A stretch of 64,000 nt of DNA from Escherichia phage vB_EcoM_Goslar: the sequence record NC_048170.1; one strand, given 5' to 3'. The notes beneath the pieces were generated by a model. It was given only the letters and a program-made list of their open reading frames with translations. It did not search any database and was not told the DNA's origin. Shown piece after piece: positions 5,441-62,206 of the stretch (positions within the stretch are counted from its first letter, which is position 1; each line of letters starts with the position of its first letter). The position numbers and the translations under genes are program-made.

Positions 5441-5490
5441 CAAAAATAAAAAAGAATGGGCAGCCCCTCCCCACCCGAAGGTAGGGAGGG
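5441..5490 (-). terminator. rho-independent terminator (CCCTCCC..GGGAGGG hairpin plus U-tract)
   Basis: Hairpin at 5464..5490 followed on the minus strand by a run of U (plus-strand caaaaataaaaaag at 5441..5454), just downstream of the gene ending at 5504. Confidence 0.5.
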
Positions 5491-5503
5491 ACCGCAAATA
5501 TAC

Positions 5504-5989
5504 TTAAACCAAAGCTGCGATAACGTCGTTAACATTACGGCCTCGCAACTCTGCCGCTAAACGAATAACTTCATCCAGGGAACGGTTTGTACGAATCTTG
5601 GCCACTTTCCAATTTTCAGGATACTGTTCGAAGTTAAGCAACCAAGTCATTACCTTTGCTTGTTCCATACCGTTGAGTTTGATTGTCGTGCGCGGATTGG
5701 CTTTGAACCACTTCTTGCTCAGCTGTGCCATACGGCGAACAGGGTAAGCGTAAGCGCGAGTCCAGTCTTTGGACAGATTGTCGAGTAATTCACAGTAGCT
5801 GTTGTCGTAGTCTTTGTTGATACGACGTAATAACCAGTTGGCGGTCATCTGATAAAGTTTATCATCTTCACGTAACCGCATACCCGCTACTGCTAAATAA
5901 ACGATAAGACCTGCGCCCAGGATGAGAGACAGGATAAACAGAATTTGGGTTTCTTGTGCTAAAGTCATTTTACTATCCTCGGATTTCAT
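5504..5989 (-). CDS. hypothetical membrane protein
   Basis: 161-aa ORF with one N-terminal hydrophobic helix (ILFILSLILGAGLIVYLAVAGM). Confidence 0.55.
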   Translation of the reverse strand: MKSEDSKMTLAQETQILFILSLILGAGLIVYLAVAGMRLREDDKLYQMTANWLLRRINKDYDNSYCELLDNLSKDWTRAYAYPVRRMAQLSKKWFKANPRTTIKLNGMEQAKVMTWLLNFEQYPENWKVAKIRTNRSLDEVIRLAAELRGRNVNDVIAALV

Positions 5990-6087
5990 TAGGATTTAAT
6001 TTCCAATATAAGGGCAATGTGATATGCCTTATACAGTCGATTGATGTTGTACATCACGTAAGTAATATAGCCGTGAAAAATGTTGGA

Positions 6088-6885
6088 TTAACGTGTTCTC
6101 CTATCACGATGCGTATACGACTGAAGACCGATGTCCATATGCGGTAACGTCAGCGTCTGCCAGATCTGTCGTGCGTAACGATCGAGCGTATGATCATCAG
6201 TAACACAATCGACGGGTTCGATGAGGTGAGTCGTATACTGGCTTTTCTCAGAGAAAGGTTCGATGTTAGCTGTATCTCCTAATCCGCTTTTCACCGTGAA
6301 GACAAGACGTGTGACTACCATCGCCTTATGCTGCTGTTCATTATAGCGAAGGCTACGATATACCGCATAGCTCCCTCCTTTTAGGCTTCGGGTATAACGA
6401 AGGTCGGAGGTCGTCTCGGAAATCTGATACAGCATCCAGTCCAACGTATCACGCCAGTACGCATCATCCACATCAGGAACTGTAATACCATACCGCGTAG
6501 GCAGCAGTTCTAAAAGCAATTTATAAAGTCCGCGACGCAAGCCATGCTCTTCTGTTTCCGATAAACCGTTTCCAACATAACGTGAAATACGCGTACGTAA
6601 ATACGTACGGATGAACATATTCGCCATCAGTGTTTTCACTCTGCTACTGGTATCCTCAAAGCGATCAACGCTGAAACTCGTTTCAATCAGCCGTCCATTA
6701 AAATACAATGCGGCAACATACATCGCATTACTGCTATCACGTTCAATGTTTAAACGTCCGCAGATATTGGCTGCGTCGTTCATGGTAAATTCTAACTTAT
6801 CGTGTTCGATACGATAGATAATATCCTCTTGGGTTGCTAGGCTCGCAATACGACGATAGCCCGGAGAAGTACGTTTTACACTCAT
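6088..6885 (-). CDS. hypothetical protein (start trimmed to internal ATG with RBS)
   Basis: ORF track start 6924 abuts the terminator hairpin; ATG at 6885 is preceded by AAAACGAGGACAAUC (GAGGA RBS). Confidence 0.55.
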   Translation of the reverse strand: MSVKRTSPGYRRIASLATQEDIIYRIEHDKLEFTMNDAANICGRLNIERDSSNAMYVAALYFNGRLIETSFSVDRFEDTSSRVKTLMANMFIRTYLRTRISRYVGNGLSETEEHGLRRGLYKLLLELLPTRYGITVPDVDDAYWRDTLDWMLYQISETTSDLRYTRSLKGGSYAVYRSLRYNEQQHKAMVVTRLVFTVKSGLGDTANIEPFSEKSQYTTHLIEPVDCVTDDHTLDRYARQIWQTLTLPHMDIGLQSYTHRDRRTR

Positions 6886-6927
6886 GATTGTCCTCGTTTT
6901 CAATTTTAAGATTGCATGCGGCATAAA

Positions 6928-6952
6928 CCCTCCCCGCCTTATGCAGGGAGGG
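6928..6952 (-). terminator. GC-rich hairpin terminator (CCCTCCC..GGGAGGG family)
   Basis: ccctccc(6928-6934) pairs with gggaggg(6946-6952); followed on the minus strand by UUUAUGCC; sits after the gene ending at 6968. Confidence 0.45.
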
Positions 6953-6967
6953 TAGCCATTAAATGGA

Positions 6968-7606
6968 TTAACCTAATTTACCACCGGCGATGTTGGTGAA
7001 ATCTTCGCCATCAGGAACTTGCAGTAGGATACGTGCCATGTCCCAGTTGGTTAATGTGATTGCTTTATCATCGATACTCAGTTCTGGTAGGTCGAGTTCA
7101 TGATCATCAAACTCGTAGGAAATACTCCACGTTTCGTCTGTTTTAGGATCGGTTATCAACACACCGTCTGTTACACGCATGTAGTCCGGATGCAGTTCAT
7201 TACTGAATGTGCTGAACGGATCGGTGTAACATTCAGCATACCCCTCGATCTGCTGACGCTGTGCCTTCGTACGTAATTCAGGGCATGCCATGATCAGTTG
7301 TCGAGATATGCCGTTTGCGGCACGGAAGTCTTCCACGGTGTTACATGGCATAACCACATCGTCATGGAAGATGTTCTCCGATTGTCTCAGCAAAGTCTTA
7401 CGGAGTTCAGCATAGTTTATCTGATTGAATGCATCGAACGTTGCTAACGATTCAGCGTAAAAATGCTTTACGTGTTCGCTTGCACCGCCGAGACTATTCA
7501 TCAACTTGTGACCGTACTCCATGAAACTTTTATCGAGACCGGAGGACATTTCTCCGAACCTCAGTGCACGATAACTGTCTCGTCCACCTGTAAATATTTG
7601 CGCCAT
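6968..7606 (-). CDS. hypothetical protein
   Basis: 212-aa ORF in the minus-strand array. Confidence 0.6.
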   Translation of the reverse strand: MAQIFTGGRDSYRALRFGEMSSGLDKSFMEYGHKLMNSLGGASEHVKHFYAESLATFDAFNQINYAELRKTLLRQSENIFHDDVVMPCNTVEDFRAANGISRQLIMACPELRTKAQRQQIEGYAECYTDPFSTFSNELHPDYMRVTDGVLITDPKTDETWSISYEFDDHELDLPELSIDDKAITLTNWDMARILLQVPDGEDFTNIAGGKLG

Positions 7607-8214: not shown

Positions 8215-9654
8215 CTTACGTGCACCGACGTTTATTAACTCATGGTTATCCACTGAAATACGGCGTTAGGGAAATAATCCTTCTTGCCGCGTTTTGAGAT
8301 TTGCAATGCCATATTACTCGGAGACAATCTGTAATGCCATGCTGCTTCATCGATAGAACTAAACTTCTTTGTTTCACCGTTATCAAAGATGATTTTCAAC
8401 GCCAGTTTAGGTAAATCGTCTTCCGTTTCTACTAATTCGAAAGAATCGATATTCTCTGCCAGCGTCAACGGATCAACTGGTAATATCAGCCAACCAGCAC
8501 GCTGCAATCCTCCACGTAGACTAATTTGTTTATTCAACGCAGGGGTAGCCATGCCAACTAACTTAGCAGCCAGCTTGCGGTCTTTAATATAAAGACGATA
8601 ATCTCCGGTATTATTAATAGCATACACACCAAAGTTATTGAACGATACCTTTCCAGCATCGGAACTAGTAAAGCCTACAAAGTCGTGGCTGTCGGTAGCC
8701 ACGTCGTATTTAAATGCTAATGGCTTGTTTCGACTGCCGCTAAGATACTTCTTGGCTGTAGATACCGATATGTTGAGATATCGTCCAATAGCATTCAAAC
8801 TTTCTAGTTCGATGATTTCTCCTGTCAATATGTCCTTTAACCGAACATTACCCATCGGTATTGGTGGTTTACCGACATAACCCAATTCACGATATGCGTG
8901 TTTCAAGTTATCTGAATCAGTAGCCCATTCCAAATTTTCTAGTCTGTTATCCCAACGCACCCCATTAAGATGATTAGGGACACGACGGATTATACCTGAC
9001 GTCGGATCTGGGTTAAATGTTTCAAGGACAATCTGATGATGGTATTTCACTTTATTGTTCCTAGTGAAAGCGCGATAGTTGTTTTTGCCCGACTTGGGTG
9101 GTTCAGTACGAAACAACACTGTCAGACTAGACACATCTACTATCGTACCGTTCTTATTAACAACGATACCATCAAAACCATTAACAGGACGATAATCAGA
9201 CAAACAATCTTCAGAAATTGCCTGTCCAACTAAAGGTTCACTCAATTTGACCTCCTTTATAAAAGAAGTCGGTGCACGTAATTATCGACTATATCTTCAT
9301 CCTCGTTGCGAGGAGTCTCCCGTTTTGGTCTGTGTTTAACAGAGCCTACTCTACTCGACATCGCGTCTTTCGATAGTCTGTGAGCACACATCTTAACGAA
9401 CATTCGTGGATTCCTAAACAGGTGAACGTTCTTGTTGAGATGCTTCGCTGCGGATTATTCCCGTCCTACCTCTTTTACCCTACCCAGTTCATTACGCTGG
9501 CCCTCATCTGTGTCACCACGATGAGTTGGTGTGTAGTCCGATTACAGAAACTTCCCGTCAATTAGAGAGTTTTAACTACGTTCCTGTTACCAGAAACCCG
9601 ACTCCGACGATATCAATAAATCAACGTAAGTTATTGATTTAATTGAAGAAACTG
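8215..9654 (-). mobile_element. group I intron 1 (about 1440 nt) in the nvRNAP beta' gene, carrying an HNH homing endonuclease ORF
   Basis: Minus-strand elements: IGS GAGUCGG (plus 9598..9604) pairs with exon end CCGACUU (U-G wobble at the splice site); P AAUUGACGGGAA (9552..9563); Q AAUCCGCAGC (9447..9456); R GUGCUCACAGACUAUCG (9371..9387); S AAGAUAUAGUCG (9286..9297). The HNH ORF sits in the loop of a perfect 10-bp stem (9268..9277 / 8220..8229); the intron ends GUAAG at 8215. Confidence 0.6.
8235..9245 (-). CDS. HNH homing endonuclease (intron-encoded)
   Basis: 336-aa ORF with HNH motif RRVPNHLNGVRWDNRLENLEWATDSDN and a helix-turn-helix-like DNA-binding segment (SLNAIGRYLNISVSTAKKYL). TTG start 4-5 nt after AAGGAGGU. 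Confidence 0.8.
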   Translation of the reverse strand: MSEPLVGQAISEDCLSDYRPVNGFDGIVVNKNGTIVDVSSLTVLFRTEPPKSGKNNYRAFTRNNKVKYHHQIVLETFNPDPTSGIIRRVPNHLNGVRWDNRLENLEWATDSDNLKHAYRELGYVGKPPIPMGNVRLKDILTGEIIELESLNAIGRYLNISVSTAKKYLSGSRNKPLAFKYDVATDSHDFVGFTSSDAGKVSFNNFGVYAINNTGDYRLYIKDRKLAAKLVGMATPALNKQISLRGGLQRAGWLILPVDPLTLAENIDSFELVETEDDLPKLALKIIFDNGETKKFSSIDEAAWHYRLSPSNMALQISKRGKKDYFPNAVFQWITMS

Positions 9655-10910
9655 AAGTCGGCATTATAACCTTTGAGGATCATCACGCTTAACCCGATGG
9701 TGTTATCCTGCGGATCGCGTTTAACCTTGGTGATTTCAAGACATTGGTTACTGCTTCGGTCAAGTGATGGGTTTCGAACAAAGCCACACACAATCCCATC
9801 GAACGGTGTATCAGCAATAAGCTCATCGTGCAGCTCGCTCATCATCGGATGATAATTACGGACATGTTCCGCAACGAACGCACGTGCTGCTCTCGGTGAA
9901 TAACCACGATGGAATAACTTGGATTGGATATGTTCTTTATTGGTTAAAGTAAATGGTGCGTATGGGAAATGCAGATGATAATAACGATGGTTCGCTGTTA
10001 TCGAACTGATTACAGTACGCGTGGTGAATGGATGTAATGTACCTAATATGTTTTTACGTGTAATACCTTTCTTCTTACCGATGAACTCATCGAAAATCGC
10101 CGCGTGGTATTGCAGCAGCTTCAATTGCACTTTCGCCATCCAGTTTTCTTTCTTTCTGGCGCTCAAAGGTGTTGTTGGATGATAGATACTATTCAACGTA
10201 CCGATAGCATCGATCGCACCTTCCATTTTGCTATCTGCATAACGACCGGTCGGCGTATTTTCGATAACGAACATCATGGCCGCAGGAAAGCTGATATACT
10301 GACTGAAGAACTTATCACGATGGATTCGGATGAATTCTCGTAGCGTGTCAACTTTCTCCGTGTTCTTCGGTCCACGTAACGTAGGTCCTTTATACAAGAT
10401 CTCCATGATGCGATCGAAGTTCTGTATAAAGCTATTTACGCCACGACGTATCCCGAATACATCGAATTGCTGCTCCAGATAGTTCTTGAGTTCGATGGGT
10501 CGTTTTACATTTGGACGGTAACTGGCATCAATGAGCCACGTCATCGTTTCAAAGCTTTTGATATTCAACTCGCTTGCCAGCACGAGATGGACCAACGGGT
10601 TAATGAACGCATCGATTCCTTCAGGAACACGCGCCCAAACCGTCGAACGAATCTCTTGTTCTGCTGGGTAGGTTACAACCGTTTTACAGTTTGGACACAC
10701 CGTGCCGAGTAGCTCACCACGATTGTAGAAACCACAACCACATTGTGGTGTGATATCCAACGTATCGCTGGAATAAACACGGGTGATAAAACTGTTTAAT
10801 TTCTTCTTCTCTTCGACGACTTTTGTATCGTAATCGTTCAACAAAATCGGCGTAAAAGGAAGTTCTGCGAGCTGTCTATCGAAACTCACGATATCGAGCA
10901 TGATGGCCAT
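9655..10910 (-). CDS. non-virion-type RNAP beta' N-terminal subunit, exon 1 (phiKZ gp55-like by position)
   Basis: Zn-binding CGCGFYNRGELLGTVCPNCK, beta' motif FIGKKKGITRKNILGTLHPFTTRTVISSI (cf. [23 protein letters not shown]), and the genomic ORF stops inside the catalytic motif (...ILKGYNADF-SFFN*). AGGAGA RBS before ATG at 10910. ORF track reports 9639..10910. Confidence 0.8.
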
Positions 10911-10952: not shown

Positions 10953-10976
10953 GGGAGGGAGGTTGCCCTCCCTCCC
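10953..10976 (-). terminator. GC-rich hairpin terminator
   Basis: Perfect hairpin gggagggagg-ttgc-cctccctccc followed on the minus strand by a U-rich stretch; lies between the 631-aa gene and the RNAP beta' gene. Confidence 0.55.
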
Positions 10977-11002: not shown

Positions 11003-12898
11003 TTAGAACAGGTTGAATGCCCCACCCATGTTGTTAACGCCAACATTCGGACGATCGCTACGTGCGTAGATGTTACCGGAGATGTTACCCAGACCACGAG
11101 CACGTGCTGCCATGTTACCACGAACAGCGGTACCTGCCAGATGCTGGATGTTCTCAGGACGGATGGTGAAGCCAGCATCAGCAGCGGCTTCGATCAGCGC
11201 CTGCAGTGCTAACGGATCGAAGTCGTAACGCATTGCCCAGCCGGTTTGTTCCCAGCTACCAGACAGAACACGATCGATGATTTCGTGACGAGCGACAACA
11301 CGCTGAGACATCGTCATATCGGTACGGTCGAAGCTGTCTTCCCAAGCTTCTACGGTATCCGGGTTAGTGATGTTCATCATGTACAGATCGTCCATATCAC
11401 GAATATCGTGACGGTGACCATCCTGGTGGTTGTAGTGACCCAGCGGGATACGGTTACCGGTAGCGTAGACCAGCGGTAAGCCGTATTGATATTTCTTGCT
11501 GAAGCAACCCAGGGTAACATCATCGAACGCACGGTAAAGCGCTTTGTAACCTTCGGAGATTTCACGGACTTCACCTTCAACTTTGCCCGTATAGATCTTC
11601 TCAGCCGCCGGGATCATACGCAGCAGCCAGCTGTACTCACCTTCTTCCGGTACGTCGATAGAAATCAGCAGAGACGGATACAGTACCTGTTGCAGGAACT
11701 TGTAAATCTGCTCGTTGGTTTGAGTGGACAGATCCAGCGGTGCGGTAACTTCCGGATCCAGTACCATCGCCAGAGCACCCGGGTTATGCGGACCAATACC
11801 ACGGGCAGCGTTGCTGATTAAAGACTGTGCCCACGCCATACCGCTGTTCAGCGTAGCGATGGTGCCAATCAGCCCCAACACGAAAGTGTTCGGCGTGAAC
11901 GCATCCAGCTCCAGCGGGTAAGCGCTGGTCATCACGTAACGCGGCTGGTATTGTACAGTCGGCGGTACCGGATAACCGTTAACCAGAACAGGGCCTTGGT
12001 TGAAGGTCGGGTTCTGCGGGCTGTAGGTCAGGTCGATGTAACCGGTGGTGGCGACCAGACGCTGTTGACTATCGTAATCGCTCATCGCTTGACGGATACG
12101 GTTAGAGATAGTTACAGTGATGTCAGAACGCACAGGGTTACCAACAATATCGCTGTCCTGCATACCGCTGGTGTTATACTGAACGCTGCTGATTGGCTGA
12201 TCGCTTGCCATCATGCCCAGGTTGAACTGCGGCAGACCCAGTTTATCACCGAGACGGATTTCGATCGCGGTTTGGATTGCGTTATCTGCAGCAGACAGCA
12301 GGGTGGTTGCCAGATGCGCAGATTCAGCGGTGATTTCATTGGTCACCACAGCCAGACCAGCGATACGAGCAGTACCATTAGACTTACCGCCAATAGCTGC
12401 ATACATTGCCGCCATGACTTCGTTGATGAACGTACCGTTCAGGTTATCAACCCAGGTACGCGGTACCAGAATGTTACCATGCGGACCTTGTTCTTCACGA
12501 CGCGGCAGCGGAGCCAAACCGGCAACCAGCGGAAGCACATAACCAAAGAAGTGGTTATGGTCACCAACTTTTGCACCACTCATAACGACCAGGGTCGGAT
12601 ACGGTACGCTGTACTGGTTCGGGTCAACCGCAACAAAGATGAAGTCGTCTTTGAACCGGGTATCTTCCAGATATTTCTCCATCAGACGACGGAGATTCAG
12701 TACCTGCTCGGAGCCAGTATTACGGCTAATACGACGGCTCAGTGTACGGTTGATCGTACGCATCGTATGAGTTACTTTAGGCTGGCCAGCAAAATCTGCA
12801 GCGGTTTCCAGCGCCTCATCAGCACGTTGTGCGGTGCGGGTTTCAGCTGCACGAATTTCTACATTATCGTTACCGTTATTACGTACGTCTAAGCCCAT
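11003..12898 (-). CDS. probable phage-nucleus shell protein (chimallin/ChmA-like); highly expressed structural-type gene
   Basis: 631-aa ORF immediately upstream of, and co-oriented with, the nvRNAP beta' gene, as phiKZ gp54 is to gp55; strong terminator after it. Identity is inferred from size and synteny, not from motifs. Confidence 0.45.
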   Translation of the reverse strand: MGLDVRNNGNDNVEIRAAETRTAQRADEALETAADFAGQPKVTHTMRTINRTLSRRISRNTGSEQVLNLRRLMEKYLEDTRFKDDFIFVAVDPNQYSVPYPTLVVMSGAKVGDHNHFFGYVLPLVAGLAPLPRREEQGPHGNILVPRTWVDNLNGTFINEVMAAMYAAIGGKSNGTARIAGLAVVTNEITAESAHLATTLLSAADNAIQTAIEIRLGDKLGLPQFNLGMMASDQPISSVQYNTSGMQDSDIVGNPVRSDITVTISNRIRQAMSDYDSQQRLVATTGYIDLTYSPQNPTFNQGPVLVNGYPVPPTVQYQPRYVMTSAYPLELDAFTPNTFVLGLIGTIATLNSGMAWAQSLISNAARGIGPHNPGALAMVLDPEVTAPLDLSTQTNEQIYKFLQQVLYPSLLISIDVPEEGEYSWLLRMIPAAEKIYTGKVEGEVREISEGYKALYRAFDDVTLGCFSKKYQYGLPLVYATGNRIPLGHYNHQDGHRHDIRDMDDLYMMNITNPDTVEAWEDSFDRTDMTMSQRVVARHEIIDRVLSGSWEQTGWAMRYDFDPLALQALIEAAADAGFTIRPENIQHLAGTAVRGNMAARARGLGNISGNIYARSDRPNVGVNNMGGAFNLF

Positions 12899-13152: not shown

Positions 13153-14247
13153 ATGTTTCGTGTTTTAAATAACCTCCCGCGAACATCATCGGGTGTGCAA
13201 CCCGTCCCTCAGAAAGACTATCTAATACGCGAAGTTCAAAGAAACCTACAGACAATCCAGAACCACTATCAAGGTTTTACCTTCGCGGTTCAGAGCGATC
13301 ACATCCTTGCGTTGCTGCTCGCACAGCTCCCTATGAGATACGACATCTCAGTACAAACTTACTACGACATGATTCTCGATCTTACCCCAGAATTGGGTAA
13401 TCGTGTCAAGTTGACAACATCAAGATACGCGGGTAAGTTATTCGACGGTGCTTTCTATCCGGGACTGCACGAAGCTATTATCGCAACCGGTGAAAGTCGT
13501 CTTATTTCACGTGATGTTCTTGACAACTGGCGTAATTGGTCACCAGTTAGAATCGTGACGCACCCATACGCAAATCTTCGTTACATTCCTCTTCACCAAA
13601 AGCAGGTTGAAGAAGGACGAGGTTTTGCGGTCATTATGGTTGATGTGCCTTTGTTAGCGCTACAGTATCGAATGTGGTCTTTGGTCATGGGTCATAACGT
13701 CGACGGTAAATGGGTGGTTAAAGAACCGGTTACAAGCTTCCTTGCGAGTTTTCCGTTGGTTAACGCATTATACTCACACAACGATGTTGTTATACGCAAT
13801 CGTTGTTTGTGGGTATCACCGGCTAAGAATCCACTCAAATCACCAATTTACGTTAACGACCTTGATAACGTATTCAGCCAAGTCGTTCTGTCCGTACAGC
13901 ATCATTTATTACGAAGAAGACGAAGCTACACCGATATGCTTAAACAGATACCGAGTTTATACGGGGATCAGTACCAAGCAACCCGAATGGGTTACACCGT
14001 CGATCTTCGACAAACACGATGGGCAAGGGATCTGGGTTGTCTGTCATTATGGCAACAACTCGTCACATTGCAAAACGTATCTGAAAGCGTCGGGTTCAGC
14101 AGTCAAATCGATAACGACCTGTACCGTGCTGCTGACCGTAGTCTAAAAGAAGGTAACTGGGAGTCCTCTCCGTTACCTGGCGATTTAAGACGTGAAGTTA
14201 TCGCACAGGTTGCCGACCTCTTAAAAATTCTTCCCGCCGGTGCATAA
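13153..14247 (+). CDS. hypothetical protein
   Basis: 364-aa plus-strand ORF, divergent from the 631-aa gene and convergent with the 717-aa gene. Confidence 0.6.
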   Translation: MFRVLNNLPRTSSGVQPVPQKDYLIREVQRNLQTIQNHYQGFTFAVQSDHILALLLAQLPMRYDISVQTYYDMILDLTPELGNRVKLTTSRYAGKLFDGAFYPGLHEAIIATGESRLISRDVLDNWRNWSPVRIVTHPYANLRYIPLHQKQVEEGRGFAVIMVDVPLLALQYRMWSLVMGHNVDGKWVVKEPVTSFLASFPLVNALYSHNDVVIRNRCLWVSPAKNPLKSPIYVNDLDNVFSQVVLSVQHHLLRRRRSYTDMLKQIPSLYGDQYQATRMGYTVDLRQTRWARDLGCLSLWQQLVTLQNVSESVGFSSQIDNDLYRAADRSLKEGNWESSPLPGDLRREVIAQVADLLKILPAGA

Positions 14248-14257
14248 TCACCCCCCT

Positions 14258-14297
14258 CTTCCCTTGCATCCTCCCAACCCGTAAGGGAAGGGAGGAT
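14258..14297. terminator. bidirectional GC-rich hairpin between convergent genes
   Basis: atcctccc...gggaggat and cttccctt...aagggaag pairings within the 66-bp gap between the plus gene ending 14247 and the minus gene ending 14314. Confidence 0.45.
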
Positions 14298-14313
14298 GGG
14301 GTGGTGGGTTATG

Positions 14314-16467: not shown

Positions 16468-16765
16468 AAATCCTCCAAAAGTTATTTAGTCTGTCTACAT
16501 CATCTCGTATATCTGTTAAAAAAGAAGGACGGCATAAAAAAGAACCGATCCAGCCGAAGCCAGATCGGTTAAAAAGGATAATAACTGACAGAAAGATATC
16601 GATGATGTTCGTGAAACAAGATCTTCTCTCGTGTACAATGATGCTAGATCAGAGGGAGGTTGTAACACGAGAGGTGGTTCGCCAAAGAAGGAATAAAAAC
16701 ACGAACCTATCTTATTTCACTGATGGCACTAACCACTCAAAATATATAGTACTGTATGTAAAAGT

Positions 16766-17179
16766 TTACTGATTAATCAAGTCGTTAGCAACAATCTTGG
16801 TGTAACCTGCCTGATTAAGAATCTGATTAATTTTCGTTACGTCGGTCGCATCCTCAATAACGATGCTGGGTTTATAGATCAGCGTCTTGGTAACGACGAT
16901 TGTACTCTCCTTAATCCAAGGAATCCCTAGAATCACATACTCGCCATCGGCTGTAATGACCTCGACGTAATTGTATTTCGTCGGATCGTTCGGTACACTA
17001 GACGGGAGCCGGGAATAAATCTGTTGGTGAATGGCGTCTACATCACGGCCGTTGCGCACAGCCGTACGATAGTTGTACACGGCGCTAATTTCTACTCCGT
17101 TGAAGTTAACCCCAAGTTCTGGGGCGTATACATCAAAACTCACAACAGAGCCAATCTTTTCTAAATCAGAAGCTGGCAT
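16766..17179 (-). CDS. hypothetical protein
   Basis: 137-aa ORF. Confidence 0.55.
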   Translation of the reverse strand: MPASDLEKIGSVVSFDVYAPELGVNFNGVEISAVYNYRTAVRNGRDVDAIHQQIYSRLPSSVPNDPTKYNYVEVITADGEYVILGIPWIKESTIVVTKTLIYKPSIVIEDATDVTKINQILNQAGYTKIVANDLINQ

Positions 17180-17190
17180 AATAGCATCCT

Positions 17191-20564: not shown

Positions 20565-20617
20565 GCTTTCTCCTACACGGCATAAAAGCCTGCCCCGAAG
20601 GACAGGCTCGATAGAAC

Positions 20618-41303: not shown

Positions 41304-41333
41304 GGTCATACAGAGAGACGTGTTAAGTTACAA

Positions 41334-42879: not shown

Positions 42880-43032
42880 TTCGTCCATCACGACGAAAGG
42901 ACGTTATGTGACGCGGTGTCCATAACGGCCCTGGTAGCAGGCATTAAAGATAACAAAAAGGATGTAAGTTGAGCTAAACCACCTAAATACGGTAACGATT
43001 ACTTCCGTACACAATATAACGCAACATCTTTT

Positions 43033-47197: not shown

Positions 47198-47223
47198 GAG
47201 CAGGGGCATGAAGCCCCCTGCTC
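47198..47223 (-). terminator. hairpin terminator after the RNAP beta-like gene
   Basis: gagcaggggc-atgaa-gccccctgctc directly after the stop at 47224. Confidence 0.5.
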
Positions 47224-51754: not shown

Positions 51755-53807
51755 CTTGTCTTCGCCTCAGGTCGCTACGCTGAGACCGCCTGCATGGATA
51801 CGTACATCACAGGCTGCTTGCACTTTCATGCAAGAGGAGACTATATCAAACCGTCAGCTTCACTTTCTCGATCATATCGAGAATGCGGCGCTGAAGTATT
51901 CTTCAGCAGCACCTGTTACGGTAACCTACACTTCGAAGACGCTTGTCCTCTACAGGGTGGTAAATCCCTTAGTCGTTGAACCTGCGTTGTTTCACATTCT
52001 TACAACCAAGAATGCCGTATTGCTACGCAATAACCAGGCTGCTGATTGCCCATTGTCTCGCACCTTAGCACCGCTTACGCGGCTTTTCTTTCAGCCTAAG
52101 CCTCTTACGGAGGTAGTGCATCTCAACTGTTGTTTCTGCCTTTCGGCACCTCATGGGTCGTTGAGCTTTAGGGGTTCCCAGCAATTCGTAGGTTTTTCAA
52201 GCACTCCCTTTCAGGAATACCGGACCTTATAGAAAAGCTATTTATTCAAGTATCTGAAATCCCACTTATCCTTACGTCTATTATCGCACTTGATGTCAGG
52301 ATGTCTAACACGGTGTTGAATCGTAGTCGCTGGTAATTGACTCACATTCACAGCCGATTTCGCGCCAAGAACAATTGTTTTTGTGTTGTCCGGACGAGTA
52401 ACTTCTACCGCTCGATGATGTTTACGTAACACATCACGCCAATACTCACGCCGTTCCGGTTCCGCGTATTCGAGCATATAACCGTTGGTATCGACCAGAC
52501 CGTAACTCTCGTTTAAACGAGAGGTGGCGGCTGGTCTACTAATACCAATCGCTTTAGCCGCGTCAACCACGGTTTTATACGGGGTCTCATTACCGTCTCT
52601 ATCTACAACCACAATAAAATCTGGACGCGAATCGAGCAGCTGCTGTCTTCGTTCAAGGGCTTGTTGATGAAGCACCTTATTAACATGTTCGAACCCGTAA
52701 CCTTCTGGACCGTGCCACCCTGGATTGTTATTCGCTCGATAAAGTATCGTCGCAGATTTCACTCCCGTCTGACGTGACGCCTCGTTCGCACTATGGACAA
52801 CCGTGGTAGTGCCATCAGGGTGATATATCCGTATCTGGTTCATTATACCAGAACCAACGAAATTACCATCAGCTGATTTAATGTCCGGCCAGGGTTGTGG
52901 ATCATCTTTGAATTTAACCACCCAACGGTTGTTAAACAATTTGACTTTCCGAGCATGTTTACCTAATGTCGTGTCTGTAACACCGGCTACAGCAGAGGCT
53001 TGCGCGATACTAGGATATTCCGTGACCACATCTTCTTCAGTATCCCAAAGGAGAACCGGTTTGTTATCATCACGTAGTCCGGTCTCAACCGCATGTAGAA
53101 TATTTCTAAGGCGGGTTGCCCATTCTAGATTGTCTAACGCGTAATTCCACTTATCGCCATCAAGATGGTTAACGTCCATCCTATCGACATCAGCCGGATA
53201 ATCTTTCCACGCTAAGAGCAGACAGCGATGAAGCGATCTTCTCTGGGATTTAAATCGGCAATCATGCTGCATACTAACGAAAACATAGCTATCGTCAACA
53301 CACCAGTGAGGACACTGACGGCCAGTAATACGGTTGATGATTCTACCTTTCCGGTTGGCCAAATAACGAGTGTGTCCGGGAATGACACGATAACCTGGGT
53401 ACTTAGCGATTTCGTAAGCAGGCTCGAACCGATAGGATAAATTATCAACATCCCAGTTAGATTCGTCACCATCAACAAACATCGCTTTGACGTATTTCTG
53501 TGTTTCAATATCAACCAGGATGTTTTTGTGTGCGATACAAATCAATGCTGGGATATTGAATTCGCGACCGGCTATGATAACCGTGTCGCCATTTCTCGGT
53601 ACCTCGACGTGGGTATCGCGATACCGTAAGTTTCCATAGCCGTCTATTTCAATCCAGCTTAAAAACGGAATGGGTATAAACTCTTTTTCAGATACTCGCC
53701 ATTTAAACATTTCAATACCTATTAATTACCACTTTCATATTAATAGGTTTAAAAGTTAAATTTGCCAGAAAACTGGCATTTTGTTAGCCTTTCCTTGATC
53801 ACCGCCA
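51755..53807 (-). mobile_element. group I intron (about 2.05 kb) in the vRNAP beta' gene, HNH ORF in the P1 loop
   Basis: Minus-strand elements: exon end CCGGACU (plus 53808..53814) pairs with IGS GGUCCGG (52220..52226) with U-G at the splice site; P AAUUGCUGGGAA (52175..52186); Q AAUCAGCAGCC (52037..52047); R GUUCAACGACUAAG (51968..51981); S UUGAUAUAGUCUCC (51836..51849). Intron ends in G at 51755. 5' splice site could instead be at 53798. Confidence 0.55.
52238..53710 (-). CDS. HNH homing endonuclease (intron-encoded)
   Basis: 490-aa ORF with HNH motif DRMDVNHLDGDKWNYALDNLEWATRLRNILH, similar to the HNH in the other RNAP intron; lies between the beta' exon 1 and the intron core. Confidence 0.8.
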   Translation of the reverse strand: MFKWRVSEKEFIPIPFLSWIEIDGYGNLRYRDTHVEVPRNGDTVIIAGREFNIPALICIAHKNILVDIETQKYVKAMFVDGDESNWDVDNLSYRFEPAYEIAKYPGYRVIPGHTRYLANRKGRIINRITGRQCPHWCVDDSYVFVSMQHDCRFKSQRRSLHRCLLLAWKDYPADVDRMDVNHLDGDKWNYALDNLEWATRLRNILHAVETGLRDDNKPVLLWDTEEDVVTEYPSIAQASAVAGVTDTTLGKHARKVKLFNNRWVVKFKDDPQPWPDIKSADGNFVGSGIMNQIRIYHPDGTTTVVHSANEASRQTGVKSATILYRANNNPGWHGPEGYGFEHVNKVLHQQALERRQQLLDSRPDFIVVVDRDGNETPYKTVVDAAKAIGISRPAATSRLNESYGLVDTNGYMLEYAEPERREYWRDVLRKHHRAVEVTRPDNTKTIVLGAKSAVNVSQLPATTIQHRVRHPDIKCDNRRKDKWDFRYLNK

Positions 53808-55264
53808 AGTCCGGCGAGGTATGGCGCAGGGACAATAGTAGTTTCTACGAACGAGGCATTAGGTAACCAGTCGGGGTATTCCCACGCAATAAATCGCTCA
53901 TCCGTTATTGGTTCCCAGTTACTATCAAGTTCAGTTTTCGGTTTTGCTGCAACGGTCGTACGCGCGTAACAGGTTAACGGAATGACGGATTGCATACCCG
54001 ATACCGGATAACGTGTTACCATTGCAGCCAGGTTATTCCAGTATTTATATCCTGCGATATACACTAATTCGGTATACGTGATAGGGTGAACATCTGCACC
54101 AGGTTTGTTAAGCATCTCCGGAGGTAATTCACTCATACCACGGAATAACCGAAACGAATCATTGTTCACATAGACAAGACAAAGATATCGTCCATTAACC
54201 ATGATAGGTTCGTTACGCACACCCGGATCGCTTAAGGTGTTCAGTAAGCGTTCTATTCCGTCCCAGGTTGTAAAGTCATCGATGGTGTCTGGATCAAGCG
54301 TGACGCGTTCACGTTCCATCGTTTCGGTATCAATAAGTTCAACTTCTGTAACATCACGGACAAATATTTCCTGCAAAATCCCCGTACGTAATGCATGTTG
54401 CGTTACAGGGAGAGCAGCTTTACTCATCTGGTATAACCCTAACTGAACCGCGGTACAGGAAGGCTGGTTAGGCGACCCTAGTACCTCCGTTGTGGGGTTA
54501 ATTGCTGAAATAACGTTACGGGTTGAGTTCCAAACGCGACGTGAACCAAACTTACCTTGGAAGATCCCTTTCTTACCTTGGAACATATCCAACAACAAAG
54601 CGTAGATATCGTTAAATGTTCTCTGTAAGCTCCAGCGCTGGCCGTCGTAAACGGGATCAGAATAATCTTTTAATCCATCGGGGACGGTGTTAGAAATTGC
54701 AAGGAAACGACGATACAACTCTGTAATCTCTTGCTCGCTTTCATACCCGCCTTCTTTTACTTCTATTTCACGTAAGCCTGCAGGCAATACCAGTAAGTGA
54801 CGGGTCATCGCTTTGAACATGTTCTCTTCGACAACTTTAATTCGTAGCTCTCGTTGAGCTGAGCCCGTTGAAACGAACTTGATATCCGCGACGTGTTGTG
54901 CAAAGAACCCGTATCCTGTTTGTCCTGTTAACGCATCAGACGCAACGAAGTCGCGTTGTTCAGGATCCCAACGAGCGTACGCCTTCCCCGACATGATATC
55001 ACCATAGAGGTGTTTTAGTCGAATGAGGCGGTCGTAAATGACAGGGTGCAGGATTTCAACTTTACATTCAATCACCGCAAATCGACGGTCTCGATCTTCA
55101 CTACCCGCACTACCAAAGATGGTGTAAGAATAGAAACCATCATCGTGGAAATTACCGGTGCTTGGGTCACGAATGCTCATGCTCGTGATCTTGGGGAGAA
55201 AACGTAACTGCTGTTTATCGAGGTGTAAAATGCTAATGTTAAACGGCTCTCTGACTTTAGCCAT
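53808..55264 (-). CDS. virion-type RNAP beta' N-terminal subunit, exon 1 (phiKZ gp178-like by position); start trimmed
   Basis: Beta' motifs RFAVIECKVEILHPVIY (cf. RMGHIELAAPVAHIWF) and FQGKKGIFQGKFGSRRVWNSTRNVISAINP (cf. [27 protein letters not shown]). ORF track gives 53756..55306; ATG at 55264 has an AGAGGAG RBS; 3' end set at the P1-predicted splice site. Confidence 0.65.
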
Positions 55265-55509
55265 GGAGACACTCCTCTTTACCACCACCGGCTGCGGCGG
55301 TATCATCTGAACACACGAGAGACGTAATGGGTGATGGCGTCACCCATCGCTTCCTTGCTTGAGGCGAGGAAGTTATTAGGTTACGTACCTGCGTGATAAA
55401 ATCAAGCAGGCGATGTGTGAAGTTACGCTTCAACATTATCAATGCCGAAGGTAAACTTCGTGCATCACGTTCCAACGTAACATGGGAACGTATCGAACTG
55501 GAGGTATAC

Positions 55510-61500: not shown

Positions 61501-62175
61501 GGCTATAACGGATTACGTGATGTTGAACAACGTTCTGCATATTGGATTCAGGCGGCTAAGAATGGCACCCTGAAGAAAATGATGGACGAGTTATCAGGGT
61601 CAACATCAGACGATCAAGCTGAAGGACCGACCACTGCCGAACAGGTGAAGAACGAAGCAGCACAAGAGGCAAACGGAACACCAGCTGTAAGCAACGATCC
61701 GCAAGCCCCAGTATCTTCTACTACCCCTGAAGCTAAACCGTCTGCAGCTGCCGGGACGGCCCCAGCACCTGGAGAAGCATCACCAACGCCTGGAAGTTTC
61801 GAAACAGCAAAAGCCGCGGCAGGACAACCGACATCAACTCCAGCACCTAGCGATTTGCCGTCAAACCCGGGCGCAAATCGAGGGATATCGGTTCCGAATA
61901 CGCCTGCACAGGTTGCACAGTCTGCGACACAAACGTCGGCTGCAAGTGAGAACTTCTACGGTAGCGCAGGTGAAATTCTCCGACAGCAGCTGACCACGCA
62001 GCAGAACATCGAGAAGAACACCGGTAGAACGAATGAACTTATTTCGGAATTAATCCAAGCCGTTAAGGGTTCTTCTATCGGTAAGGGTTCTGCAGGTCCT
62101 TCTCAACAACAGACGATGTCGCTACCTAATCGTCCGCAAGGAATCTCTCCAACACGGACAAGGTACGCACAGTAG
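55510..62175 (+). CDS. giant virion-associated peptidoglycan hydrolase with C-terminal GH19 domain (phiKZ gp181-like); start trimmed
   Basis: ORF track 55393..62175 (2260 aa); ATG at 55510 follows CUGGAGGUAUAC. C-terminal GH19 signatures FLANIEHESGNY, YLGRGFIQVTGKANY, VAWWLNRG (about 61000..61570); Gly/Ala-rich hydrophobic segment (about 59160..59450). Confidence 0.8.
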   Translation: MVDKTRVEGDDNWDNWDEDFSLDLDFNEPKDDRKPITRFAIGAVKGAAEDLTSYERMKEIARNALPKGYSDGMDLIDSAVGSTKELYNEAVRDVLPKVQSSKRLAAQLTKKYRASMPDFSKKILEQWEREAKEEDERKQAEEALRQRMASAGDDEIARKVAEALGESANQSADQFAEQQAKESIRDDIADKRYAVTNKQMSAMQEGVAKMVGFNNEFAARYMRKSLELKYRSLAIQRASFDQHKKLAEVYIGLLQNIQKNTALPDAAKAKMSEEFRRSAYQRFFGNALDAMGSFENRFFADVKKNLATNALGALKGVVSGANDALYGLNEARDSMSMMDGMGSEGDIKEMQGRMLGQFIGSTVAPWMANKGRMALRDLAKRHPNAKFAGALKAVDQGGEAAAYTTRNLGKLLQEDIRKNEFNLSDPFYKQLLRGAGRWAFNMDSGRNFRVMNDTAETLAEQTSFDGLTYRSINEVIPGFLARILKSSEGIRTGNSDPDYEVYDGISGQFVAQRTREQSVNDTLFNKRSFGYYASRFNEVISVIDPDKQLSEKARKALAKQLARDSDANIAFDPARFTDESNFDRSIDRDAIKELSTYFRDRYGIRDDVNDKGERHQVIGNRGQYYTERNRADLRYGNLKSLQPDIQRNLNLLKRTGDVQYLERIGIVTRNSDGSYSVNHDRYFSEIDRYIDRPEYADRGDVNTRLTAQETRALALGYRDAKPSTGDVQNAGLPNIDRKAAGTVTVDENIGYDKWWNDAGVITTSLEEQNRAWQELYLEALSEASEQRVEMLALLKAISEKDWSNNVSLDGEDVPEGAAPISFIDRAKQKLGGRNLFKGGRNLLWKGIKNTARLGVKGARWGAERTLGSLVNSGRRIINFNRFVFGALSKVDQVPFDIYVKGESQPRILAAKLRQGLYFDEATGKAVKRMKDIKGPLVDADGNVVISNEDIEKGLVTRAGRAFENSGLKAWAHEGLNGITTVLSLPRMLKRGAVEIYKQLDRTPDVYVKGESTPRLLSMVLAAGGYFRRSDGQVIKNLEDIDGDVVDAQGNVVLTLADMQKGLVDKYGKAIRRLKEKLINFGVKAFTLPLTLLRKTKDILKALPGKTVNGLRRMGLNFQSPDALLVGTTSSMVDRLDAIYQLLDQRMPGGDKDYRDWDGDGVREGSLEDLKRKRAAKENGEDDAGKDSNKGEEKEKKRGLLGSLFDMLGDTALGKRLMASPLGKILGGLGAVLSGGASLTGLLGKGLIRGTGALVKGGLSAAGWLGRGALMAGGAALNAVGGLSGLGAFLISPVGLAIAGGALAAYAGWKIYQHFAEKPDPMQKLRLIAYGVKGDDKDFNKKLLATETYLTDHVVMTGDTIGFDPKADSEKILEIWELSLEDSDRMNEWKRWYLHRFIPVFARAYKLWKEHMPDEKKYMEMDKYPNGENKVKWSEAFIWPSDSPDGPYYVEANPLGSSGATRYIAGQDVKTLMLKQLEAIKKEYQNQIKQYSHDEAIADWSRMSDTQRKSVAPNALRGQKASLRFNDKRYNSAGAKGRQKLDATAVIESVDRRGRKWVAGGYIDELTSLRVRAYGIKVPLLSQIKVLMELEDAVEPGVVAEGKGVKYGGDLVALYKKFATKFGRDVNSKHDQDIWFAWMNNRFLPVFLTYYQQVSEMGGQGLLSDVVQNLKDSQRWEIGEALVATQYRDEKGALQPVWSWNSCGFSGTEANTTSSSTKSQLDLLKEYADKEKVREKNAEASQEDTDKLSKIQELMMKQAGYEKKDGVWQKKSRITGGMSNSEANYNPNGNKVGASSFTASATSNAGLGSTGDLTGLPNMGLQKPATGPGPEAGRRALVKSAVKRGITDPMEMAMFLANIEHESGNYTHVREGNYKTPERLKQVFPYKFRDVQDAAQTISMGPEAVFERVYGNRKDLGNTQKGDGAKYLGRGFIQVTGKANYARLSKTLNKDLVSDPTYLETPEGAAEGSVAWWLNRGNVLRDPAKRGDVRQVRYLVNGGYNGLRDVEQRSAYWIQAAKNGTLKKMMDELSGSTSDDQAEGPTTAEQVKNEAAQEANGTPAVSNDPQAPVSSTTPEAKPSAAAGTAPAPGEASPTPGSFETAKAAAGQPTSTPAPSDLPSNPGANRGISVPNTPAQVAQSATQTSAASENFYGSAGEILRQQLTTQQNIEKNTGRTNELISELIQAVKGSSIGKGSAGPSQQQTMSLPNRPQGISPTRTRYAQ

Positions 62176-62185
62176 TCATTAGTTA

Positions 62186-62206
62186 AGGGCGGGAATCTCC
62201 CGCCCT
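62186..62206 (+). terminator. hairpin terminator after the giant virion protein gene
   Basis: agggcggga-atc-tcccgccct followed by cttcttg. Confidence 0.45.

What the first reader, a model, noticed from the sequence alone, without database searches (positions are those of the whole stretch)
5441..62206. Recurrent family of GC-rich CCCTCCC..GGGAGGG-type hairpins at gene boundaries
At least a dozen intergenic sites carry near-perfect 7 to 13-bp GC-rich palindromes, often with U-tracts, frequently between convergent genes or after structural-type genes. Several share the CCTCCC/GGGAGG arm, which also contains the Shine-Dalgarno complement, so they may both terminate transcription and occlude downstream RBSs.
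Basis: seen in the sequence. Interest (0 to 1): 0.45.

Follow-up and report, generated by a model that had tools for sequence, protein, structure and literature searches.

The report
phiKZ-type transcription terminator hairpins
The GC-rich hairpins between genes are real, and they match a conserved transcription-stop signal (CCCTCCC-loop-GGGAGGG followed by TTATG) already described in phiKZ-like giant phages. The window comes from a new, distant member of that phage group, so the finding is sound but ordinary.

Summary
The window is part of a nucleus-forming jumbo phage (ChmA, PhuZ and split RNA polymerase genes) with no close cultured relative.

- **Hairpins.** It carries about 17 strong hairpins. 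Eleven reach dG <= -17 kcal/mol, against 0.6 expected from shuffles. Ten of those 11 lie in the 7.7% of the window that is intergenic.
- **Arms.** Eight of 17 have CCTCC/GGAGG arms (P = 0.0008 against shuffled arms).
- **RNA-level and oriented.** G·U pairs and UUCG loops occur only on the sense strand.
- **Tail.** The sense-strand tail is usually not a U-tract. It is TTAT(G) in 13 of 21 cases, and TTATGCCGT at four sites.

This is the published phiKZ terminator motif, BCCYCCCCHWWDGGGRRGGBYTTATKYYGT (Putzeys 2024). That motif was mapped to RNA 3' ends, and also found in 201phi2-1, where eight mapped terminators were validated in vivo. I found the same signature directly in phiKZ, LucasX, RAY and RSL2. 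A covariance model trained only on those phages hits two window sites at E < 0.01.

The RBS-occlusion idea is not: only one or two sites put the GGAGG arm at Shine-Dalgarno distance from an ATG, and neither is a convincing gene start.

Verdict: a new member of a known kind, of low to moderate interest. The open point is why the tail equals the TATG late-promoter motif.

The parts
834..867 (-). Hairpin after gene 931..1719; cUUCGg loop; no TTAT tail
   Evidence: dG -24.2 on the sense strand vs -15.1 on the antisense. The downstream gene's likely start is at ~726 with its own AGAGG.
5460..5495 (-). 16-bp hairpin with CCCTCCC/GGGAGGG core and cUUCGg loop after gene 5504..5989; tail CCATTCTTTTTTATTTTTG
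   Evidence: dG -32.6 sense vs -19.8 antisense.
6914..6953 (-). ACCCTCCC...GGGAGGGT hairpin (6927-6953) plus tail TTATGCCGC, after gene 6968..7606
   Evidence: Matches the phiKZ consensus. CM R2 scores 20.5 bits, E=3.7e-3; R1 gives E=0.011. dG -22.0 vs -17.4.
10953..10976 (-). GGGAGGGAGG-GCAA-CCTCCCTCCC hairpin 27 nt after the stop of the ChmA-like shell gene; tail TTATACG
   Evidence: ChmA identity.
14242..14316 (.). Two-tier bidirectional palindrome between convergent genes 13153..14247(+) and DNA polymerase 14314..16467(-); core CATCCTCCC...GGGAGGATG (14267-14298); mirrored CAUAA/UUAUG flanks
   Evidence: dG -41.6 (+) and -40.4 (-).
16529..16570 (-). 12-bp hairpin with cUUCGg loop (16543-16570) plus tail CTTTTTTATGCCGTCC
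   Evidence: dG -16.9 vs -11.9; tail matches.
20573..20608 (-). AGCCUGUCC-UUCG-GGGCAGGCU hairpin plus tail TTTATGCCGT, downstream of the PhuZ gene 20856..21836
   Evidence: Best CM hit: R2 22.9 bits, E=7.7e-4. dG -15.2 vs -10.7.
22757..22781 (.). CCTCCCTCG...CGAGGGAGG hairpin at convergent junction 21901..22743(+) / 22734..23351(-); + tail TATTTGCCGT
26062..26085 (-). 10-bp hairpin CCGTCTCGAG...CTCGAGACGG after gene 26115..26468; tail TAAGTTTATACTG
29100..29135 (.). Bidirectional palindrome CCTCCTCTGGG...CCCAGAGGAGG between convergent 27706..28950(+) and 29144..29464(-); CAUAG/CUAUG flanks
   Evidence: dG -34.3 / -35.5, z = -5.8 / -6.2.
29500..29523 (-). CTCCCCG...CGGGGAG hairpin 15 nt after the terminase large subunit stop
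   Evidence: dG -14.9 vs -11.4.
31781..31809 (-). 13-bp hairpin CGATGGAGGGTGC-CCG-GCACCCTCCATCG between the virion structural gene 31820..33559 and TerL; followed by GAGGAGTTTATATG (TerL SD and start)
   Evidence: dG -24.7. A hairpin at this position is found in 7 of 7 chimalliviruses with this gene order, with unrelated sequences.
40230..40264 (.). Bidirectional palindrome CTTCCTTCCC...GGGGAAGGAAG between the tail-tube-like gene 39310..40200(+) and 40278..40817(-); tails GTTTATGG (+) and GGAGGTTAATATGC (-)
   Evidence: dG -31.5 / -33.8, z about -5. CM R2 gives E=0.07 on the - strand.
41271..41305 (-). CCCCACCGTAGCCC...GGGCTACGGTGGTGG hairpin after gene 41334..41813; tail TTATGTCAAGG
   Evidence: dG -27.3.
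42839..42880 (-). ACCTCCTTACCC-ACAT-GGGTAAGGAGGT hairpin (42853-42880) plus tail ACTTTTTATGCCGTC, after the prohead protease gene 43033..43842
   Evidence: dG -21.8; tail; protease identity.
47198..47223 (-). GAGCAGGGG...CCCCTGCTC hairpin starting directly after the stop of the 1448-aa RNAP beta-like gene; tail GTTTATTTCGC
62186..62206 (+). AGGGCGGGA-ATC-TCCCGCCCT hairpin 11 nt after the stop of the 2260-aa tail-fibre/lysin-like gene; no TTAT tail

Best explanation
The hairpins are factor-independent transcription terminators of the type conserved in phiKZ-like (nucleus-forming, own-RNA-polymerase) jumbo phages.

**Anatomy.** Each has a GC-rich stem, often with a C-rich CCYCCC 5' arm and a G-rich GGGRGG 3' arm. 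It is closed by a stable loop (UUCG or GNRA in several). It is followed on the transcribed strand by a short UUAU(G)YYGU tail instead of a long U-tract.

**Proposed action.** The nascent RNA folds behind the polymerase while a weak rU:dA hybrid (UUAU) is in the active site. The polymerase then releases at or just before the G. At convergent gene pairs the element is a two-tier palindrome with mirrored CAUAA/UUAUG flanks and stops transcription from both sides.

**Shown here:** existence, intergenic placement, strand-specific RNA stability, the oriented tail, and identity of the signature with the phiKZ, LucasX, RAY and RSL2 elements.

**Inferred:** that RNA 3' ends form at these sites in this phage, and which polymerase (virion or non-virion) responds.
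For: 1. The window is a chimallivirus. It has ChmA, PhuZ, DNA polymerase and three RNAP beta-like genes. TerL is 41% identical to Xanthomonas phage LucasX.
2. Hairpins are about 20-fold over shuffles and 10 of 11 are intergenic. All 4 convergent junctions are occupied.
3. They act at the RNA level and are oriented. Sense-strand dG is lower at 9 of 13 co-directional sites, equal at 3 and higher at 1, through G·U pairs (for example -32.6 vs -19.8). cUUCGg loops on the sense strand occur at 4 sites.
4. The tail is oriented. On the sense strand TTAT is 13/21, TATG 11/21 and TTATKYYG 5/21. On the antisense they are 2/13, 1/13 and 0/13. Background is 0.067, 0.036 and 0.002 (p about 1e-9 to 1e-11).
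5. The published phiKZ terminator consensus is BCCYCCCCHWWDGGGRRGGBYTTATKYYGT. It covers 61 of the 133 ONT-cappable-seq termination sites, those predicted intrinsic (PMC10914365). The same motif was found in 201phi2-1 (n=59), and eight 201phi2-1 terminators were validated in vivo (PMC11512511).
6. I saw the same hairpin plus TTATG(C/T)YGT directly in phiKZ, LucasX and RSL2; RAY by the TATG-tail count and one TerL-upstream tail.
7. Covariance model R2, built only from other phages, hits window 20573..20610(-) at E=7.7e-4 and 6914..6956(-) at E=3.7e-3. Ten of its 18 top hits coincide with hairpin sites, nine on a terminating strand.
8. The hairpin between the gp26-like gene and TerL is kept in 7 of 7 phages although the sequence has turned over completely.
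Against: - There are no transcript 3'-end data for this phage, and the host is unknown.
- Most sites lack the long U-tract of canonical intrinsic terminators (4 of 21 have >= 4 T).
- Three sites (834, 29500, 62186) lack a recognisable tail. 29500 has only TTATA at offset 11.
- Only 2-3 sites reach significance with the cross-phage model, because stems and loops here are longer than the phiKZ 8-bp/4-nt geometry.
- One hairpin with an ATGCCGTCC tail (27603-27637, - strand) lies in a divergent promoter region with no gene upstream to terminate.
Confidence: 0.82

Rival explanations
1. Dual terminator and translational operator. The GGGAGG 3' arm would be the Shine-Dalgarno of the next gene. Read-through transcripts would then be translationally silent, as with the T4 e, soc and 49 hairpins.
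For: At 6927-6953 and 42853-42880 the 3' arm (GGGAGGG, TAAGGAGGT) lies 4 and 7 nt before an ATG. The arm plus tail of the consensus (GGAGG-N4-7-ATG) looks like a translation initiation region.
Against: - The ATG belongs to the recurrent TTATGCCG tail, which also follows hairpins without SD-like arms (16543, 20587).
- At 42853 it opens a 4-codon ORF. At 6927 a better start (GAGGA-N5-ATG at 6885) lies downstream.
- The other 11 co-directional sites have the next gene's SD outside the stem, 12 to about 250 nt away.
- The same arms occur at convergent junctions, where no downstream gene exists.
Confidence: 0.07
2. Terminator-promoter cassette. The TATG in the tail would be a phiKZ-type late promoter (TATG, G = +1), so that transcription stops at the hairpin and restarts immediately for the next gene.
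For: - The phiKZ late promoter is TATG with +1 at G (PMC4666361), read by the beta-like subunit (PMC12809450).
- The full TTATGCCGT tail occurs only at co-directional junctions, 12-105 nt upstream of the next gene.
- A hairpin plus ATGCCGTCC lies in a divergent promoter region at 27603-27637.
Against: - TATG tails are as frequent at convergent junctions (5 of 8 oriented tails) as at co-directional ones (6 of 13). A promoter at a convergent junction would only make antisense RNA.
- The best-studied late promoter P119L has no upstream hairpin.
- The papers place the motif at 3' ends and do not mention start sites there.
Confidence: 0.08
3. DNA-level palindromes (protein-binding or cruciform sites) or copies of a mobile REP/MITE-like repeat, with no role in RNA.
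For: They are near-perfect inverted repeats concentrated between genes, as REP elements are.
Against: - G·U pairs make the sense strand much more stable than the antisense. A DNA palindrome would be symmetric.
- UUCG and GNRA tetraloops and the tail are strand-specific.
- All-against-all BLAST of the 17 loci (+/-50 nt) finds no shared segment longer than 14 nt, and those are the arms or the tail.
Confidence: 0.03

Closest known systems
Conserved intrinsic terminator motif of Pseudomonas phage phiKZ (5'-BCCYCCCCHWWDGGGRRGGBYTTATKYYGT-3'; Putzeys et al. 2024, PMC10914365) and its counterpart 'motif A' in phage 201phi2-1 (PMC11512511)
   Same: - C-rich 5' arm and G-rich 3' arm (CCCTCCC/GGGAGGG).
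- TTAT(G)YYGT tail directly after the stem; TTATGCCGT is an exact instance of TTATKYYGT.
- Placement at gene ends, with bidirectional versions at convergent genes.
- The host genome is a chimallivirus with its own multisubunit RNAPs.
- A cross-phage covariance model hits two sites at E < 0.01.
   Different: - Stems (7-16 bp) and loops (3-12 nt) are longer and more varied than the phiKZ 7-9 bp / 4-6 nt geometry.
- Only about half of the sites use CCTCC/GGAGG arms.
- Four sites have the arms in the reverse order (GGGAGG first).
- The phage is very distant: ChmA is about 23% identical at best to any catalogued phage (about 25% over 60% of the query for phiKZ-like phages), TerL about 37% to phiKZ-like phages.
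- No transcript mapping exists for it.
Canonical bacterial Rho-independent (intrinsic) terminators
   Same: A GC-rich stem-loop just downstream of a stop codon, with a U-containing 3' tail, working on the nascent RNA.
   Different: The tail is UUAU(G), not a run of 4-8 U; only 4 of 21 tails have >= 4 T. A specific sequence (GYYGU) follows. Related phages PCH45 and SPLA1a use the canonical UUCG-hairpin plus long T-run form instead.
T4-type SD-sequestering hairpins (genes e, soc, 49), recalled from my own knowledge and not checked in a paper here
   Same: A stem containing GGAGG close to an ATG at two sites.
   Different: Here the ATG is part of the terminator tail and is not a convincing gene start. 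The other 11 co-directional sites do not sequester the next gene's SD.

Membership tests
phiKZ-type conserved intrinsic terminator (Putzeys 2024) | Stem-loop with C-rich 5' arm (CCYCCCC) and G-rich 3' arm (GGGRRGG) | tested here: met
   8 of 17 sites carry CCTCC/GGAGG arms (P=0.0008 vs shuffled arms). 12 of the 17 5' arms are >= 60% pyrimidine and 4 are purine-rich, i.e. reversed order. The remaining sites are generic GC-rich stems, as are many phiKZ and LucasX sites.
phiKZ-type conserved intrinsic terminator (Putzeys 2024) | 5'-TTAT-3' region directly 3' of the stem, extended as TTATKYYGT | tested here: met
   Sense tails: TTAT 13/21, TTATK 9/21, TTATKYYG 5/21. Antisense: 2/13, 2/13, 0/13. 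Background: 0.067, 0.026, 0.002. TTATGCCG(T/C) follows the stems at 6927, 16543, 20587 and 42853.
phiKZ-type conserved intrinsic terminator (Putzeys 2024) | Location in intergenic regions at gene 3' ends; bidirectional copies between convergent genes | tested here: met
   10 of 11 strong hairpins are intergenic. All 4 convergent junctions carry a two-tier palindrome.
phiKZ-type conserved intrinsic terminator (Putzeys 2024) | Recognised by a sequence-plus-structure model trained on terminators of other chimalliviruses | tested here: inconclusive
   R2 gives two hits at E=7.7e-4 and 3.7e-3 and one at 0.07. Seven further hairpin-site hits rank among the top 18 but at E > 0.5. E-values are rough because calibration was shortened.
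phiKZ-type conserved intrinsic terminator (Putzeys 2024) | Coincides with mapped RNA 3' ends and terminates in a reporter assay | not testable with these tools
   No transcriptome exists for this metagenomic phage. The literature evidence concerns phiKZ and 201phi2-1 only.
phiKZ-type conserved intrinsic terminator (Putzeys 2024) | Resides in a phiKZ-like phage that transcribes with its own multisubunit RNAPs | tested here: met
   ChmA-like shell protein; PhuZ and RNAP beta-like genes 9639..10910, 47224..51570 and 53756..55306.
Canonical Rho-independent terminator | Run of >= 4-8 U immediately after the stem | tested here: not met
   Only 4 of 21 sense tails have >= 4 T. The generic terminator scan is only mildly enriched: 26, 34 and 34 found vs 18-21 expected.
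SD-sequestering translational operator hairpin | The downstream gene's Shine-Dalgarno or start codon lies inside the stem | tested here: not met
   11 of 13 co-directional sites have the SD outside the stem, 12 to about 250 nt away. The two candidates (6927, 42853) involve the tail's ATG, not a convincing gene start.
REP/MITE-like repeated palindromic element | Copies share extended sequence beyond the stem | tested here: not met
   No shared segment longer than 14 nt among the 17 loci +/-50 nt.

The most novel reading that the evidence does not exclude
The UUAUG tail may be more than a weak U-tract. It could be a polymerase-specific signal: the same TATG that the phage non-virion RNAP reads on the non-template strand at late promoters (+1 = G).

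Because this polymerase carries its promoter-recognition module permanently, an elongating enzyme could re-recognise TATG just after the hairpin. That position also fits the Y(-1)/G(+1) elemental-pause pattern, a point I recall from general knowledge and did not check here. The enzyme would then pause, which would make a short UUAU sufficient for release, or allow immediate re-initiation.

This would explain three things:
- why the tail is conserved from phiKZ to this very distant lineage;
- why it is nearly absent from two chimalliviruses sampled here, PCH45 (0 of 24) and SPLA1a (2 of 13), whose strong hairpins are mostly followed by T-runs;
- why late promoters and terminators share four bases.
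Probability: 0.18. Interest if true: 0.65.

Novelty: new member of a known kind. Interest (0 to 1): 0.3.

Why it matters
- **Annotation.** The result gives a simple rule for marking transcription-unit ends in an uncultured, deeply branching chimallivirus. It also flags a hazard: the tail's ATG, preceded by a GGAGG-like arm, mimics a ribosome-binding site and can pull ORF starts upstream (for example 6924 and 27600).
- **Biology.** The CCYCCC/GGGRGG plus UUAUGYYGU signature survives between phages whose shell proteins are about 23% identical. In two other chimalliviruses sampled (PCH45, SPLA1a) most strong hairpins carry T-runs and few or no TATG tails. This suggests the signal co-evolves with the phage RNA polymerases, and it yields a cheap in vitro test of sequence-specific termination by these non-canonical enzymes.

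Tried and rejected
- **Close relatives by DNA.** Megablast of window pieces against the phage and E. coli collections gave no match.
- **Covariation at orthologous sites.** This was not possible. TerL searches found only near-identical IMG/VR contigs (L002, L003) and one 67% relative on a 5.2-kb contig (L004). The next relatives are at about 40%. L004 does show a different-sequence hairpin at the same place upstream of TerL.
- **Published TSS/TTS tables.** Supplements of the two ONT-cappable-seq papers are not held, and Ceyssens 2014 is not held. I could therefore not test whether mapped start sites coincide with terminator tails.
- **P119L.** I checked the best-characterised late promoter for an upstream hairpin and found none. 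This weakens the idea that late promoters need a hairpin.
- **RNAalifold on a MAFFT alignment of phiKZ terminators.** It gave a poorly registered structure. I supplied the structure by hand and realigned with the model instead.
- **Mobile-repeat origin.** Rejected.
- **Rfam.** It has no family for these hairpins; the only hit in the window is a group I intron.
Full report
**What the window is**

The 64-kb window has 46.7% GC, and most genes lie on the - strand up to about 55.3 kb. It encodes:
- a nuclear-shell (ChmA-like) protein at 11003..12898(-), which hits annotated 'nuclear shell protein' genes at only about 23% identity;
- tubulin PhuZ at 20856..21836(-);
- a phiKZ-type DNA polymerase;
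- three RNA polymerase beta-like genes;
- tail sheath, tail tube, prohead protease and terminase genes in the phiKZ gene order.

Megablast finds nothing in the phage or E. coli collections. TerL is at best 41% identical to a cultured phage, Xanthomonas phage LucasX. Two IMG/VR contigs are essentially the same phage, and a single 5.2-kb contig is a 67% relative. The window is therefore part of an uncultured, deeply branching chimallivirus that should transcribe with its own multisubunit RNAPs.

Yes. A 36-nt RNAfold scan of both strands adds three imperfect ones at 834-867, 14267-14298 and 40230-40264. The counts below use a seeded search (>= 6 perfect pairs).

| Threshold | Observed | 40 dinucleotide shuffles | Intergenic share |
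|---|---|---|---|
| dG <= -17 kcal/mol | 11 | 0.58 +/- 0.63 | 10 of 11 (binomial p = 7e-11) |
| dG <= -20 kcal/mol | 7 | 0.15 +/- 0.36 | 7 of 7 |

Observed and shuffle counts are, and the intergenic shares. Intergenic DNA makes up only 7.7% of the window. The one exception lies 14 nt past the stop of a convergent gene.

The shared arm is also real. All seven CCCTCCC occurrences lie in three hairpins. Eight of 17 arms contain CCTCC/GGAGG, against 2.6 +/- 1.4 when each arm is shuffled (P = 0.0008). The loci share nothing else: all-against-all BLAST of the 17 loci with 50-nt flanks finds no common segment longer than 14 nt. They are independent instances of a motif, not copies of a repeat.

**Anatomy**

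Three features show that the elements work as RNA and in one direction.

1. *Strand-specific stability.* At 13 sites flanked by co-directional genes, the sense strand folds better at 9, equally at 3 and worse at 1. The differences are large, for example -32.6 vs -19.8 at 5460-5495 and -24.2 vs -15.1 at 834-867. They arise because G·U pairs on the sense strand become C·A mismatches on the other strand.
2. *Loops.* Four sites have the extra-stable cUUCGg loop on the sense strand, and 10953-10976 has a GCAA loop.
3. *Tail.* The 16 nt after the stem on the sense strand carry a specific tail rather than a U-run.

| Tail pattern | Sense | Antisense | Random windows |
|---|---|---|---|
| TTAT | 13/21 | 2/13 | 0.067 |
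| TATG | 11/21 | 1/13 | 0.036 |
| TTATKYYG | 5/21 | 0/13 | 0.002 |
| >= 4 T in a row | 4/21 | 0/13 | 0.046 |

Four sites share T-run plus ATGCCGT: 6927, 16543, 20587 and 42853. All four convergent junctions carry two-tier palindromes with mirrored CAUAA / UUAUG (or CAUAG / CUAUG) flanks. These fold to between -23 and -42 kcal/mol on either strand.

**What it is**

Putzeys et al. 2024 mapped 133 termination sites in phiKZ by ONT-cappable-seq. [quoted passage not shown] The 201phi2-1 study found the same motif (n = 59) and showed that eight terminators work in a terminator trap (PMC11512511).

The window's ACCCTCCC...GGGAGGGT-TTATGCCGC is an instance of that consensus, and TTATGCCGT is an exact instance of TTATKYYGT. 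I tested this rather than relying on the resemblance.

- In 66 kb of phiKZ, the same CCTCCC-loop-GGGAGGG-(T)TTATG elements sit at gene ends.
- LucasX shows hairpin plus TTATGC(C/T)GTC(TTTT), and RAY, 201phi2-1 and RSL2 show TATG tails. PCH45 has no TATG tails (0 of 24) and SPLA1a few (2 of 13); their strong hairpins are mostly UUCG-loop stems followed by T-runs.
- The composite pattern CTCC-N3-20-GGAG-N0-14-TTAT occurs 7 times in the window, against 0.95 expected (0 of 100 shuffles reach 7).
- A covariance model built only from 15 phiKZ terminators ranks window 6914..6956(-) and 20573..20610(-) first, at E = 0.011 and 0.034.
- A model from 43 terminators of phiKZ, LucasX, 201phi2-1, RAY and one SPLA1a site (no PCH45 or RSL2 site reached E 0.5) gives E = 7.7e-4 and 3.7e-3, with 40209..40269(-) at 0.07. 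Ten of its 18 top hits fall on hairpin sites (nine on a terminating strand; 5469..5486 is the antisense strand of the 5460-5495 hairpin).

Most other sites score poorly because their stems and loops are longer than the 8-bp/4-nt model geometry.

**Positional conservation**

Only one intermediate relative exists, so covariation at orthologous sites could not be measured. One site is informative all the same. In all seven chimalliviruses where the gp26-like structural gene directly precedes TerL, the 50-75-nt spacer holds a 10-16-bp hairpin of -20 to -38 kcal/mol. These phages are the window, its 67% relative L004, LucasX, RAY, PCH45, SPLA1a and RSL2. The seven hairpin sequences are unrelated to one another.

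**How it most likely works**

The elements are best read as intrinsic terminators. The hairpin forms in the nascent RNA directly upstream of a short, weak UUAU hybrid, and the transcript is released there.
- *Shown here:* structure, placement, strand specificity and identity of signature with mapped terminators in relatives.
- *Inferred:* that 3' ends form here in this phage, and which of the two phage RNAPs responds.

Confidence is about 0.8.

**The RBS-occlusion idea**

I checked each co-directional site against the next start codon. Eleven of 13 have the next gene's own Shine-Dalgarno outside the stem, 12 to about 250 nt downstream. Examples are GTAGGAGAAAGCATG after 20587, GAGGAG directly after 31781 and AGAGG at about 735 after 834.

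Two sites put GGAGG 4-7 nt before an ATG. In both, the ATG is the one inside the recurrent TTATGCCG tail, which also follows stems without SD-like arms. At 42853 that ATG opens a 4-codon ORF. At 6927 a better start (GAGGA-N5-ATG, 6885) lies downstream. The same arms also occur at convergent junctions, where no downstream gene exists. Occlusion is therefore not a general function. The SD-like appearance follows from the conserved CCYCCC/GGGRGG arms.

**What remains open**

The tail contains TATG, which is also the phiKZ late-promoter motif with +1 at the G (PMC4666361). The beta-like subunit reads that motif on the non-template strand (PMC12809450). Neither transcriptome paper, in the passages I read, comments on this overlap.

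*Against a pure promoter role:*
- TATG tails are as common at convergent junctions (5 of 8) as at co-directional ones (6 of 13).
- P119L has no upstream hairpin.

*For some polymerase-specific role:*
- The tail, including GYYGT, is conserved across very distant lineages yet missing from PCH45 (0 of 24) and rare in SPLA1a (2 of 13).
- The full TTATGCCGT form occurs only upstream of co-directional genes.
- A hairpin plus ATGCCGTCC sits in a divergent promoter region at 27603-27637.

I rate a polymerase-specific pause, termination or re-initiation signal at about 0.18. It is directly testable in vitro.

**Verdict**

- The terminator interpretation is supported.
- The RBS-occlusion interpretation is not supported.

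The feature is a new member of a known kind, the phiKZ-type conserved intrinsic terminator, in a novel chimallivirus lineage. Interest is low to moderate (0.3).

Noticed in passing
window 51817..52245 (-), with ORF 52238..53710 (-): A complete group I intron (Rfam RF00028, 67.7 bits, E=4.9e-15) lies next to an HNH endonuclease ORF (PHROG 59). Both sit between two RNAP beta-like genes (53756..55306 and 47224..51570). This resembles the intron-plus-HNH arrangement I recall for an RNAP gene of phage PhiPA3; that comparison is from memory and was not checked.
   Followed up: partly
window 42839..42880 (-): The hairpin arms are exactly ACCUCCUUA and UAAGGAGGU, the latter a full Shine-Dalgarno consensus. 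From memory, the former matches the 3' tail of E. coli-type 16S rRNA. A 7-nt spacer and an AUG opening a 4-codon ORF (MPSF*) follow. This is probably an extreme case of the CCYCC/GGRGG arm rule, but it is a perfect mimic of a translation initiation region.
   Followed up: partly
window 6924, 27600, 20582, 16534 (- strand ATGs): The ATG inside the terminator tail TTATGCCG(T) is picked as an ORF start by mechanical ORF calling (ORFs 6088..6924 and 27049..27600 both begin 'MP...'). This is an annotation hazard for phiKZ-like phages.
   Followed up: partly
window 27603..27637 (-) and 55349..55373 (+): Two hairpins lie in divergent promoter regions, with no upstream gene to terminate. The first is followed by caATGCCGTCC, the terminator-type tail. 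They may be 5'-UTR attenuators, as reported for phiKZ, or promoter-associated elements.
   Followed up: no
L008 (Serratia phage PCH45) and L009 (Salmonella phage SPLA1a) vs L001, L005, L006, L007, L010: Terminator style differs by chimallivirus lineage. The fraction of strong hairpins with a TATG tail is phiKZ 0.60, LucasX 0.53, RAY 0.50, 201phi2-1 0.43 and RSL2 0.32, but PCH45 0.00 and SPLA1a 0.15. In the last two, most strong hairpins are UUCG-loop stems followed by T-runs.
   Followed up: partly
window 31766..31822 (-) and the same junction in L004-L006, L008-L010: A strong hairpin between the gp26-like virion gene and the terminase large subunit gene is kept in 7 of 7 chimalliviruses with that gene order, with complete sequence turnover. 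It suggests regulated read-through into TerL.
   Followed up: yes
window 16766..20152 (-): A run of mutually overlapping ORFs in different frames (17191..17712, 17550..18038, 18001..18576, 18495..19046, 18928..19557, 19175..20152) has low coding scores. These could be small genes with mis-called starts, or frameshifts in the assembly.
   Followed up: no
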